From the IMG/VR virus record IMGVR_UViG_2526164664_000023: a stretch of 25,327 nt of DNA; one strand, written 5' to 3'. Positions within the stretch are counted from its first letter, which is position 1. Each line of letters begins with the position of its first letter. The position numbers were made by a program. The DNA comes from a virus. Lineage: Duplodnaviria; Heunggongvirae; Uroviricota; Caudoviricetes. Shown one piece after another: positions 24,001 to 25,327 of this stretch.

Positions 24001-25327
24001 ATCGTCTGGCAACCGCTATTCTGAACGCAGCCGGGCGCACCTCCGCCTTCATCAGTGGTAAGGCACCGGAAATCAAACCCTCGCCCGGCGGCAACACGCC
24101 ATCGGGTCCGTCTGCAGATACGTCCGTTCGCACAATCTCCCTGCTGCCGGCAGCCGGAGAGGCTGCTGCGCAGGGCTGGAGCATTAAGGATGGCGGAATT
24201 CAGTTGTCAGATGGTGTATTTAAGATCACCAAGCAGAGCAATAAAACCTGGTCCCTGACGCATCCGGTGGATGACGCAATTACCCTGCTGACACAGGGCG
24301 GCAGACTGACCTGTAAGTTCCGCCTGTCAGGCGCACTGACCAACAATCAGTTCGGGCTGGGGATTTATCTGTATACGGATGCTCCCGTTCCTGATGGTGT
24401 GGCGATGACGGGTACCGGTAATCCGTTCCTGATGTCGTACTTCACTCAGACCACTGACGGCAGAGTGAATCTGATGCATCACAGGAAAGCCGGAAACACG
24501 AAGCTGGGGGAGTTCGGCGATTACGGTAACGACTGGCAGACGCTGGAGCTGGTGTTCACCGCCGGCAGTGCCACGGTTACTCCGAAACTGAATGGAGTGG
24601 CTGGCCCGGCATTCCAGGTTATAAAAGACAGTCTGACACCGGGACTGAATGCGCTGACGCTGACGGATGTTACAAAAAATGCAGCGTATGGCGTTGAGAT
24701 AGAAAGTCTGATGCTGGAGATAAATGCACCGGCAGCATAATAAAAAAAGCCAGCGACTGACCTGAAAAAGAAGACGCTGGCTAAAAGGCCTTATATGTTT
24801 GTAGAGACTTATTTTTCACAGACAGCAATGATGCCTGTCAATATATTATCAATATGCGGATTGTTTCAGTTACAGATGCCTTATTAGGAAAAAAACAGCC
24901 AGCACTGACTTTCGGTGGAGAGGTGCTGGCTCAAAAGGATAGATGTACTTCACATGTTGCTTCTATATGGCAGTACATTTTCTGACAGACAGTGACGGAT
25001 GTTGTCAAGATATTGTGTCATTTATAACCTGAATCAGGGGAGGCCGGAATGTTATCTGGCATTTTTAGCAGAGCCTGAATGCCATAATCACGGCTCCCGG
25101 CGTTGGCCGTCAGTGGGTGACACTGGCGGCTTTTTTGTTTTTCTTTACTTTCATTTTCTGTCGGCGGTGACGGAGACATACATCAGATGGAAAAAATCAC
25201 AACAGGTGTGTCATACACCACGTCAGCGGTGGGGACGGGATACTGGTTACTGCAGCTGCTGGACAAAGTCTCTCCGTCCCAGTGGGTGGCAATAGGTGTG
25301 CTGGGAAGTCTGCTGTTTGGCCTGCTG

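What the first reader, a model, noticed from the sequence alone, without database searches (positions are those of the whole stretch)
24741..25185. Two related hairpin-plus-repeat units with compensatory stem changes between nanS and the holin gene
Two elements share the layout A7, stem (AGCCAGCG / CAGCCAGCAC), a 17-19-nt loop, complementary stem, AAAAGG. The stems differ between copies but stay complementary, which suggests selection on the structure. Each is followed by a related 60-bp segment (TTTTCACAGACAG... and TTTTCTGACAGACAG...). The second unit ends in a promoter-like element, a 9-codon mini-ORF with a strong SD, and a strong terminator just before S. The orientation of the A/U tracts suggests the hairpins could terminate antisense transcription. 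This could be a duplicated late-leader region, small RNAs, or regulatory sites.
Basis: seen in the sequence. Interest (0 to 1): 0.5.

Follow-up and report, generated by a model that had tools for sequence, protein, structure and literature searches.

The report
Known prophage small RNA PasA locus
The two hairpins are transcription stop signals on the opposite strand: one ends PasA, a small regulatory RNA already shown experimentally in pathogenic E. coli prophages, and the other belongs to a diverged tandem copy of that RNA gene, so the finding is real but largely already described.

Summary
Two related hairpins, each preceded by A7 on the + strand, lie between the nanS-p-type esterase gene and holin S. 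The segments next to them are also related. Read on the minus strand, each hairpin is a stem followed by U7, which is an intrinsic terminator.

The minus strand 24973->24889 is 85/85 identical to PasA, an Hfq-dependent sRNA validated by northern blot and RIL-seq in EPEC E2348/69 (Pearl Mizrahi 2021). The published northern probe matches 24898-24922 exactly. Hairpin 2 is the PasA terminator. Hairpin 1 is the 3' end of the published 236-nt minor form.

Across PasA, PasA-2-like, PasC and a third type, the stem keeps pairing through compensatory changes (C:G to U:A, G:C to A:U).

One point is not stated in the papers I read. Unit 1 (24741-24888) is a diverged tandem paralogue of the PasA/PasC unit. 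It has a PasC-type stem and the same TTGACA promoter-like motif, and it coincides with the Hfq-CRAC peak EcOnc52 of O157 Sakai. Whether it is expressed on its own is unproven.

The + strand terminator before S is real and conserved. The mini-ORF and + strand promoter are untested.

Verdict: already known, low interest.

The parts
24889..24973 (-). PasA sRNA gene, major 85-nt form. The 5' end is CTGCC at 24973 and the 3' end is the U7 tail at 24895-24889.
   Evidence: It is 85/85 identical to E2348/69 PasA (NC_011601 743499->743415, Table S6 of PMC8550237). The published northern probe GCCAGCACTGACTTTCGGTGGAGAG equals + strand 24898-24922.
24897..24931 (-). Hairpin 2, the PasA intrinsic terminator. 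It has a 9-bp stem and a 17-nt loop, followed on the RNA by G and then U7. The 5' arm carries the published seed GCCAGCACCU.
   Evidence: I13; Fig. S5 text.
24739..24973 (-). Equivalent of the published 236-nt minor PasA form, which reads through hairpin 2 and ends at hairpin 1. It is 235 nt here because of a 1-bp indel near 24885.
   Evidence: Table S6 gives a minor 3' end at 743264.
24748..24782 (-). Hairpin 1, the second minus-strand intrinsic terminator. It has an 8-bp stem of PasC type (AGCCAGCG/CGCUGGCU), followed on the RNA by U7 (24748-24742), and lies directly after the esterase stop codon at 24738-24740.
   Evidence: minus-strand terminator hit; I8; annotated in phage 434. RIL-seq RNA2 fragments map to 743267-743294.
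24741..24888 (-). Unit 1, a diverged tandem paralogue of the PasA/PasC unit. It comprises a promoter-like motif, a shortened body and terminator hairpin 1. The predicted own transcript is about 24807->24742 (about 66 nt).
   Evidence: Alignment statistics are and the family alignment. The O157 Sakai Hfq-CRAC peak EcOnc52 (Sp4) has this sequence, and Sp4 lacks unit 2 because of an IS629 insertion.
24979..25008 (-). Putative PasA promoter: TTGACA (25008->25003), an 18-nt spacer ending in TGT, then CAGAAA (24984->24979). The PasA 5' end lies 6 nt downstream.
   Evidence: Read directly from the sequence. The hexamers are invariant in all unit-2 and PasC variants. This is an inference with no TSS data.
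24812..24841 (-). The same promoter-like motif in unit 1: TTGACA (24841->24836), an 18-nt spacer ending in TGT, then GAAAAA (24817->24812).
   Evidence: It has no substitution in 9 unit-1 variants, including the 90%-identical plasmid relic. This is an inference.
25105..25142 (+). Intrinsic terminator on the late-gene strand, 45 nt upstream of holin S. It has an 11-bp stem followed by TTTTTTGTTTTT.
   Evidence: -20.6 kcal/mol, z -4.4; annotated in phage 434. It is conserved in 28 variants. A different terminator sits at the same position in IGRs that lack Pas.
25037..25078 (+). G-rich SD-like spot (25037-25043) and 9-codon mini-ORF (25049-25078, MLSGIFSRA). Status unknown.
   Evidence: The ORF is invariant (one ATG->GTG change), so coding cannot be tested. 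The SD-like spot is the only hypervariable site in the element.
25187..25327 (+). Start of the class II holin (pinholin) gene S, which runs off the end of the window. Context only.
22878..24740 (+). SASA-family (NanS-p-type) esterase gene, with the reading frame broken in this window. Context only. Its 3' end (24708-24718, CUGAUGCUGGA) is a published PasA RIL-seq target motif.

Best explanation
The region is the esterase-holin intergenic spacer of a lambdoid (phage 434 / Stx1-phage type) late operon.

The PasA gene. The strand opposite the late genes carries the gene for PasA, an 85-nt Hfq-dependent base-pairing sRNA (24973->24889).
- Hairpin 2 plus U7 is its Rho-independent terminator and presumably its Hfq-binding 3' end.
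- The published seed GCCAGCACCU forms the 5' arm of that stem.
- Termination there is incomplete. Transcripts that escape stop at hairpin 1 plus U7, which abuts the esterase stop codon. This gives the 236-nt minor form and keeps antisense transcription out of the esterase gene.

Unit 1. Hairpin 1 and the roughly 100 bp upstream of it are not just a back-up terminator. They are a diverged tandem copy of the same sRNA unit, with:
- the same TTGACA-N18-(TGT)nAnAAA promoter-like motif;
- a body shortened by about 18 nt;
- a PasC-type stem.
This copy probably also yields a short Hfq-bound RNA of its own (EcOnc52), with a different seed (GCCAGCGUCU).

The + strand. The sequence is the 3' UTR of the esterase or late transcript and ends at a strong terminator 45 nt before S. 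That terminator should stop transcription not modified by antiterminator Q from reaching the lysis genes.

What is shown and what is inferred.
- Shown here or in the cited experiments: identity to PasA, the terminators, the major and minor forms, Hfq binding, unit homology and stem covariation.
- Inferred: the promoters, independent expression of unit 1, and the insulating role of the + strand terminator.
For: - Identity to PasA: 85/85 bases, and the northern probe matches exactly.
- Published architecture: Table S6 lists the strand as '-', the arrangement as '> < >' between E2348C_0688 (esterase) and 0689 (holin), and 85-nt major and 236-nt minor forms. The gene order is the same here.
- PasA levels: they fall in the hfq mutant under the activating condition (log2FC -2.8).
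- RIL-seq partners: 41 interactions are listed.
- Terminators: the stems fold at -16.3 and -16.5 kcal/mol, with z -3.3 and -7.8. Phage 434's record annotates both as minus-strand terminators.
- Covariation: 95.2% of cells are paired against 22-48% in slid controls. Pair types are CG:11/UA:2/UG:1 and GC:9/AU:5.
- Unit homology: z is about 7.9 for whole units, and 2 of 2000 shuffles reach the score for bodies alone. MAFFT aligns unit 1 with PasC and PasA-2-like bodies.
- Single-unit loci exist with either stem type directly after the esterase stop.
- EcOnc52 has the unit 1 sequence in prophage Sp4, where IS629 has removed unit 2. RIL-seq chimeras include fragments ending at hairpin 1.
[quoted passage not shown] They name NC_011356 as a PasA phage, and it is 99.2% identical to this region.
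Against: - No expression data exist for this particular window. Transcription is inferred from identical or near-identical loci.
- The promoter assignment is weak. The -10-like hexamers (CAGAAA, GAAAAA) lack the consensus T at the last position, and the consensus scan did not report them.
- Zhu et al. state that the PasA 5' end may arise by cleavage of a longer transcript.
- EcOnc52 reads are not unique to Sp4. Sp12 carries an identical unit 1, so the peak could come from read-through PasA transcripts made elsewhere and assigned to Sp4.
- The physiological function of PasA is not established.
Confidence: 0.9

Rival explanations
1. Unit 1 is only a decayed relic. Hairpin 1 works solely as a back-up terminator for PasA read-through and as a shield for the esterase gene. 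No separate RNA is made from unit 1.
For: The original authors interpret RNAs ending at hairpin 1 as a 236-nt minor PasA isoform. The unit 1 body is shortened and strongly diverged. The -10-like element is poor (one search found no promoter there). EcOnc52 reads could be multi-mapped from read-through transcripts, because Sp12 has an identical unit 1.
Against: The promoter-like 30 nt (TTGACA...GAAAAA) carry no substitution in 9 unit-1 variants. The plasmid relic has at least 8 changes in the roughly 68-nt transcribed part. The EcOnc52 peak starts 4-5 nt after the -10-like hexamer, as the PasA 5' end does after its own. Sp4 keeps unit 1 with its upstream 24 bp but has no PasA promoter.
Confidence: 0.5
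2. The main role of the minus-strand RNAs is cis- and trans-antisense control of the esterase/late transcript, rather than regulation of distant targets. The transcript's 3' UTR is fully complementary to them. The proposed effects are processing or stability changes at the esterase-holin junction.
For: The + strand transcript must cross both units before reaching the only + strand terminator, at 25105-25142. RIL-seq finds + strand fragments antisense to the PasA 5' end (743494-743512).
Against: RIL-seq also lists dozens of core-genome partners that share a motif complementary to the seed (ftsB, frr, ahpC 5' UTR and others). No effect on esterase or holin expression has been reported in the papers read. 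My duplex calculation for PasA against the esterase 3' end is no better than shuffles (187/500).
Confidence: 0.25
3. One reading: the hairpins are + strand regulatory structures of a duplicated late leader that control S expression, together with a + strand promoter and a leader peptide.
For: Both hairpins also fold on the + strand (-15.5 and -20.8 kcal/mol). A TTGTCA-15-TATAAC element, an SD-like G-run, a 9-codon ORF and a terminator follow in order. The segment 25030-25142 is strongly structured (z -3.5).
Against: Neither hairpin has a 3' T-run on the + strand. The experimentally detected RNAs that contain them are minus-strand. The 15-bp spacer is outside the usual range, and the hexamer overlaps the minus-strand TTGACA. 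The mini-ORF shows no informative substitutions, and its SD is the one hypervariable spot. Tree 2014's list has no Hfq-CRAC peak at the corresponding Sp12 coordinates.
Confidence: 0.07

Closest known systems
PasA (pathogenicity-associated sRNA A) of EPEC E2348/69: Pearl Mizrahi et al. 2021, Sci Adv (PMC8550237); Zhu, Shabalina & Storz 2026, bioRxiv 10.64898/2026.05.13.724894
   Same: The 85-nt sequence is identical. The strand, the flanking genes (SASA esterase and class II holin), the terminator, the seed and the downstream second terminator that gives the 236-nt form are all the same.
   Different: Nothing in the sRNA itself differs. The window's intergenic region differs from the E2348/69 locus by a single 1-bp indel near 24885.
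PasC of EPEC E2348/69 (prophage PP5)
   Same: Hairpin 1 has the PasC stem AGCCAGCG/CGCUGGCU and the PasC position directly after the esterase stop. The PasC body is homologous to the PasA body, and the promoter region and + strand element are the same.
   Different: PasC loci hold one unit only. The body of unit 1 here is about 18 nt shorter and too diverged to be found by BLAST with PasC. The loops also differ.
EcOnc51 and EcOnc52, Hfq-CRAC peaks in E. coli O157:H7 Sakai (Tree et al. 2014, Mol Cell, Table S2; PMC4104026)
   Same: EcOnc51 (Sp12) covers hairpin 2 of a PasA-2-like unit. EcOnc52 (Sp4) covers unit 1 and hairpin 1.
   Different: Both are listed only as predicted sRNAs with Rho-independent terminators and were not tested by northern blot. 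Pearl Mizrahi et al. cite both together as 'homologues' of PasA, whereas they correspond to the two different units.
AgvB and AsxR anti-sRNAs and the 'convergent sRNA pairs' at the moron site of lambdoid prophages (Tree et al. 2014; Rfam RF02702, RF02703)
   Same: They are short Hfq-binding sRNAs encoded in the late region of Stx-type prophages, antisense to the late transcript and ending in intrinsic terminators.
   Different: The position differs: they lie between the moron and the next ORF, upstream of the esterase. The sequences are unrelated, and cmscan gives no hit in 24741-25327 at E <= 1.
Tandemly duplicated sRNA genes such as OmrA/OmrB (E. coli) and PrrF1/PrrF2 (Pseudomonas). This comparison is from my own knowledge; both are also cited in Zhu et al..
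   Same: Two adjacent paralogous units have conserved terminators and diverged 5' parts.
   Different: Here one copy is strongly shortened and its independent expression is unproven. Zhu et al. state that pasA copies are not products of tandem duplication, because their BLAST-level search does not detect unit 1.

Membership tests
PasA sRNA | Sequence matches the experimentally defined 85-nt PasA of E2348/69 | tested here: met
   85/85 identical at 24973->24889 on the minus strand. The northern probe matches 24898-24922.
PasA sRNA | Encoded between the sialic-acid (SASA) esterase gene and the holin gene, antisense to both ('> < >') | tested here: met
   The esterase ORF ends at 24740 and the holin starts at 25187, both on the + strand. 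PasA is on the minus strand.
PasA sRNA | [quoted passage not shown] | tested here: met
   A 9-bp stem followed by G and U7, -16.3 kcal/mol, z -3.3. The seed is present.
PasA sRNA | Expressed, Hfq-dependent, and engages targets on Hfq | not testable with these tools
   Shown in EPEC for the identical sequence (northern blot, RNA-seq log2FC -2.8 in the hfq mutant, 41 RIL-seq interactions). Not measured for the source of this window.
PasA/PasC family (for unit 1, 24741-24888) | Homology to PasA/PasC units over promoter, body and terminator | tested here: met
   Alignment score 86.5 against 39.1 +/- 6.0 for whole units, and 2 of 2000 shuffles for bodies alone. MAFFT places it in register with PasC and PasA-2-like bodies, with gaps of 15 and 3 nt.
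PasA/PasC family (for unit 1) | Made as its own transcript from its own promoter | tested here: inconclusive
   The TTGACA-N18-GAAAAA motif is conserved, and the EcOnc52 peak lies in Sp4, which lacks unit 2. The reads are not unique to Sp4, and the authors read the RNA as a PasA read-through form.
Rho-independent terminators (both hairpins, minus strand) | G+C-rich stem directly followed by a U-run on the transcribed strand | tested here: met
   Hairpin 1 was found by the scan. Both are annotated in OL657226. The published 3' ends map to both.
AgvB / AsxR anti-sRNAs (Rfam RF02702, RF02703) | Match to the Rfam covariance models | tested here: not met
   cmscan of 20000-25327 at E <= 1 gave only STnc100 and a chance SorX hit, both upstream of the esterase gene.

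The most novel reading that the evidence does not exclude
Unit 1 (about 24807->24742) is a separate, so far unnamed Hfq-binding sRNA gene. It is a tandem paralogue of PasA with its own promoter and a distinct seed (GCCAGCGUCU). Under this reading the 'PasA locus' is a two-gene sRNA cluster, and PasC-type and single-unit loci arose from it, or it from them, by unequal recombination between the shared AGCCAGC/GCTGGCT stems.
Probability: 0.4. Interest if true: 0.3.

Novelty: already known. Interest (0 to 1): 0.2.

Why it matters
PasA is one of the most abundant accessory-genome sRNAs on Hfq in EPEC. In the complete E. coli genomes searched here, this region is present in 699 of 5426, usually in several copies, and according to Zhu et al. 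[quoted passage not shown] Recognising it here shows that the window carries a known riboregulator and not a new element.

Two modest additions follow from this work. The second hairpin unit is a diverged copy of the same gene. The two 'homologues' cited from EHEC (EcOnc51 and EcOnc52) are in fact the two different units. This bears on how the sRNA family evolved. Zhu et al. argue against tandem duplication on BLAST evidence alone. It also bears on whether a second seed specificity is encoded at the locus.

Tried and rejected
- Rfam (4227 families) gave no hit in the region at E <= 1. PasA is not in Rfam 15, and AgvB and AsxR do not match.
- The sigma-70 consensus scan reported only two weak promoter-like sites inside unit 1 (24819-24847 on + and 24869-24840 on -). 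The promoter assignments therefore rest on conservation and on spacing to the mapped 5' ends only.
- The phage collection holds few distinct variants (28-29 records, mostly near-identical Stx1a phages). I sampled diversity through 80 IMG/VR loci anchored on the esterase C-terminus instead.
- RNAduplex of PasA against the esterase 3' end was no better than shuffled targets (187/500). I do not use it as support for the published target site.
- The mini-ORF cannot be tested for coding, because the ORF is invariant across 28 variants.
- Searching Tree 2014's table for additional Hfq peaks at the Sp12 locus (a + strand partner or a unit 1 peak) found none beyond EcOnc51.
- A literature search for EcOnc51 and EcOnc52 in main texts returned nothing.
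- I considered a bidirectional-terminator reading of the hairpins and rejected it, because there is no T-run after either stem on the + strand.

Full report
**The observation**

The window's last 600 bases run from the end of a SASA-family (NanS-p-type) esterase gene (stop codon TAA at 24738-24740) to the start of a class II holin gene (ATG at 25187).

Two hairpins lie in the spacer.
- Hairpin 1 is AGCCAGCG 24748-24755 paired with CGCTGGCT 24775-24782.
- Hairpin 2 is AGCCAGCAC 24897-24905 paired with GTGCTGGCT 24923-24931.
- Each is preceded on the + strand by seven A's.

As RNA on the minus strand they fold at -16.5 and -16.3 kcal/mol, with z-scores of -7.8 and -3.3 against dinucleotide shuffles.

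The two 149-bp-spaced units are related beyond the hairpins.
- A global alignment of the whole units scores 86.5, against 39.1 +/- 6.0 for 1000 shuffles.
- With the terminators removed it scores 52 against 31.9 +/- 5.2, and 2 of 2000 shuffles reach that value.

- The mini-ORF is 25049-25078 and encodes MLSGIFSRA.
- Its G-rich SD-like sequence is 25037-25043.
- The strong + strand terminator is 25105-25131 plus a T-run, -20.6 kcal/mol, z -4.4.

**Which strand matters**

On the + strand neither hairpin is followed by T's. On the minus strand each is a stem followed by U7, the signature of an intrinsic terminator.
- The scan finds hairpin 1 as a minus-strand terminator.
- Hairpin 2 escapes the scan only because its loop is 17 nt.
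- The curated GenBank record of phage 434 (OL657226) differs from this spacer by a single base. It annotates both hairpins as minus-strand terminators and the third as a + strand terminator.

**What it is**

Table S6 of Pearl Mizrahi et al. 2021 (PMC8550237) defines PasA in EPEC E2348/69.
- It lies on the minus strand between E2348C_0688 (esterase) and E2348C_0689 (holin), in the arrangement '> < >'.
- The 5' end is at 743499.
- The major 3' end is at 743415 (85 nt) and the minor 3' end at 743264 (236 nt).
- The northern probe is GCCAGCACTGACTTTCGGTGGAGAG.

I fetched that locus and compared it with the window.
- The 85-nt PasA sequence is identical to the window's minus strand 24973->24889.
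- The probe equals + strand 24898-24922.
- Hairpin 2 is therefore the PasA terminator.
- Hairpin 1, 149 bp further along the minus strand, is the 3' end of the published minor read-through form (24973->24739 here).

The published evidence for PasA is experimental.
- PasA was validated by northern blot.
- Its level falls in an hfq mutant (log2FC -2.8 under the activating condition).
- It has 41 RIL-seq interactions.
- Its proposed seed, GCCAGCACCU, is the 5' arm of hairpin 2.

Zhu, Shabalina & Storz (bioRxiv 2026) describe the same arrangement of esterase, PasA and holin. They name phage NC_011356 as a PasA phage, and it is 99.2% identical to this region. They conclude that PasA and PasC share an ancestor and show compensatory changes. 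PasA is not in Rfam 15, and nothing in 24741-25327 matched any family at E <= 1.

**Comparative check of the stems**

I anchored on the esterase C-terminus and collected 80 IMG/VR loci. After adding the reference loci, I classified the 79 spacers that were long enough to score.

| Architecture | Loci |
|---|---|
| Two units, as here | 53 |
| Single PasC-type unit (hairpin-1-like stem AGCCAGCG, PasA-like body, directly after the stop codon) | 12 |
| Single unit with stem AGCCAGUAC/GUACUGGCU | 2 |
| Unit 1 alone (unit 2 lost to an IS or a rearrangement) | 3 |
| Unit 2 alone by the stem search | 1 |
| No Pas-type unit found by the stem search, or cut by an insertion | 8 |

I aligned 14 distinct units (A1) and counted pairs in the 9-bp terminator helix.
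- 95.2% of cells are paired, against 22-48% when the 3' arm is slid by 1-3 columns.
- Pair 84-106 is CG in 11 sequences, UA in 2 and UG in 1.
- Pair 85-105 is GC in 9 and AU in 5.

It is what one expects of a terminator and Hfq-binding hairpin in a diversifying sRNA family.

**The second unit**

This is the only point where I can add to the papers I read. MAFFT aligns unit 1 in register with the PasC and PasA-2-like units.
- The first 29 nt are shared: TTGACA, a spacer, then CTGTCTGT and an A-rich hexamer.
- Gaps of 15 nt and 3 nt follow.
- An 'ATAAGT...' body follows, then the PasC-type stem and the U-run.

In both units a perfect TTGACA is followed after 18 nt by TGT plus CAGAAA (unit 2) or TGT plus GAAAAA (unit 1). 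This resembles an extended -10 with the key A at position 2 but no final T.
- The RNA-seq-defined PasA 5' end (C at 24973) lies 6 nt after that hexamer.
- The left edge of the O157 Sakai Hfq-CRAC peak EcOnc52 (T at 24807 in window terms) lies 5 nt after the unit 1 hexamer.

I fetched both Sakai loci.
- EcOnc51 (prophage Sp12) is hairpin 2 of a PasA-2-like unit.
- EcOnc52 (prophage Sp4) is unit 1.
- In Sp4 an IS629 copy has replaced everything beyond 24 bp upstream of the unit 1 TTGACA, so no PasA promoter is present there.

The promoter-like 30 nt of unit 1 carry no substitution in nine variants, including a 90%-identical plasmid relic that has at least eight changes in the transcribed part. 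RIL-seq also records chimeras whose sRNA-side fragment ends at hairpin 1 (743267-743294).

Together this suggests that unit 1 is an independently expressed paralogue with its own seed (GCCAGCGUCU). It is not proof.
- Sp12 has an identical unit 1, so CRAC reads may be multi-mapped.
- The original authors read these RNAs as a PasA read-through isoform.
- The -10-like hexamers are weak.

I put independent expression at about 0.4-0.5.

Zhu et al. state that pasA copies are not products of tandem duplication. That holds for BLAST-detectable copies but overlooks this diverged neighbour.

**The + strand**

The 190 bp before S are nearly invariant in 28 variants, apart from a hypervariable G-rich spot exactly at the mini-ORF's SD-like sequence.
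- The ORF itself never varies (one ATG->GTG change), so coding cannot be judged.
Its first hexamer overlaps the minus-strand TTGACA, and the 15-bp spacer is short.
- RIL-seq detects + strand fragments antisense to the PasA 5' end, upstream of that putative promoter. This fits a long esterase 3' UTR that ends at the 25105-25142 terminator.
- Spacers that lack Pas units carry a different terminator at the same place before S.

A stop signal just upstream of the holin therefore appears to be the conserved feature. From established lambdoid biology, late genes are reached only by Q-modified polymerase. By inference, this terminator insulates the lysis genes from Q-independent transcription of the upstream moron genes.

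**Mechanism and rivals**

The best-supported reading is a convergent sRNA gene (PasA) with two terminators in series, plus a probable paralogue.

The main open alternative is about function, not identity. The strongest PasA partner among the RIL-seq rows I retrieved is the 3' region of a paralogous esterase mRNA (668 chimeras), and its own esterase 3' end is also a partner (34 chimeras). Antisense control of esterase or late transcripts may therefore be a main role. My duplex calculation does not support the specific short site, and many core-genome partners exist. The duplicated-late-leader idea is not supported.

**Verdict**

It corresponds to a published, experimentally validated sRNA locus (PasA; EcOnc51/52), so novelty is 'already known' and interest is low. 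The residual novelty is the tandem-paralogue status of unit 1.

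Noticed in passing
window 22590-22795 (+): An STnc100-like structured RNA lies just upstream of the esterase gene (41.4 bits, below the gathering score of 47; E 1.2e-6). The published PasD1/D2 northern probe matches 22753-22776 with one mismatch, so this is a PasD homologue. The PasD-esterase-PasA arrangement is the one reported for E2348/69 prophage PP2.
   Followed up: partly
window 22878-24740 (+): The esterase gene is split into three ORFs. 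Compared with the intact phage 434 gene it has a 14-bp insertion (23105-23118) and single-base deletions near 23208 and 23822. It is therefore a pseudogene here, or the sequence has errors.
   Followed up: partly
window 25036-25046 (+): This is the only hypervariable spot in the otherwise invariant 190 bp before S. It is a G-rich run (GGGGAGG, GGGGTTGG, GGGGGTGG, GGAGGTGG, GGGGGGGGAG and others) that coincides with the mini-ORF's SD-like sequence. In the predicted fold it pairs with GGCTCCC at 25092-25098.
   Followed up: partly
L004 (plasmid pRM10386-2, NZ_CP028124) 2919-3157; also H83-H88: Virulence-type plasmids of about 83-98 kb from O26 and other STEC carry a relic made of the last roughly 90 bp of the esterase gene plus unit 1 (90% identity). 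The relic is flanked by IS600 and other IS elements. Homology ends at the A-run of hairpin 2.
   Followed up: partly
L056, L067, L079, L084 (IMG/VR loci), spacer after the esterase gene: This is a different, shorter esterase-holin spacer without Pas-type units. It still has a + strand terminator (AGCCATCAGTAGTTAACTGGTGGCTTTTTT) about 50 nt before S.
   Followed up: no
window 24681-24728 (+) versus unit 1 RNA (24807->24742, -): The predicted unit 1 RNA can form an unusually stable duplex with the esterase 3' end: -37.7 kcal/mol against -25.8 +/- 4.1 for shuffled targets, with 4 of 500 shuffles reaching it. PasA does not do this. It is a single post hoc test, so it may be chance.
   Followed up: no
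L017, L065 (IMG/VR loci): These loci hold a third single-unit type, with stem AGCCAGUAC/GUACUGGCU directly after the esterase stop and a PasA-2-like body. They show that both stem types can occupy the stop-proximal position.
   Followed up: partly
window 24836-24860 (-): Unit 1 has a local repeat upstream of its TTGACA (ATATTGATAATATATTGACA), which gives a second TTGATA hexamer. The consensus scan also reports a weak minus-strand promoter-like site, CTGAAA-18-TATATT, at 24869-24840.
   Followed up: no
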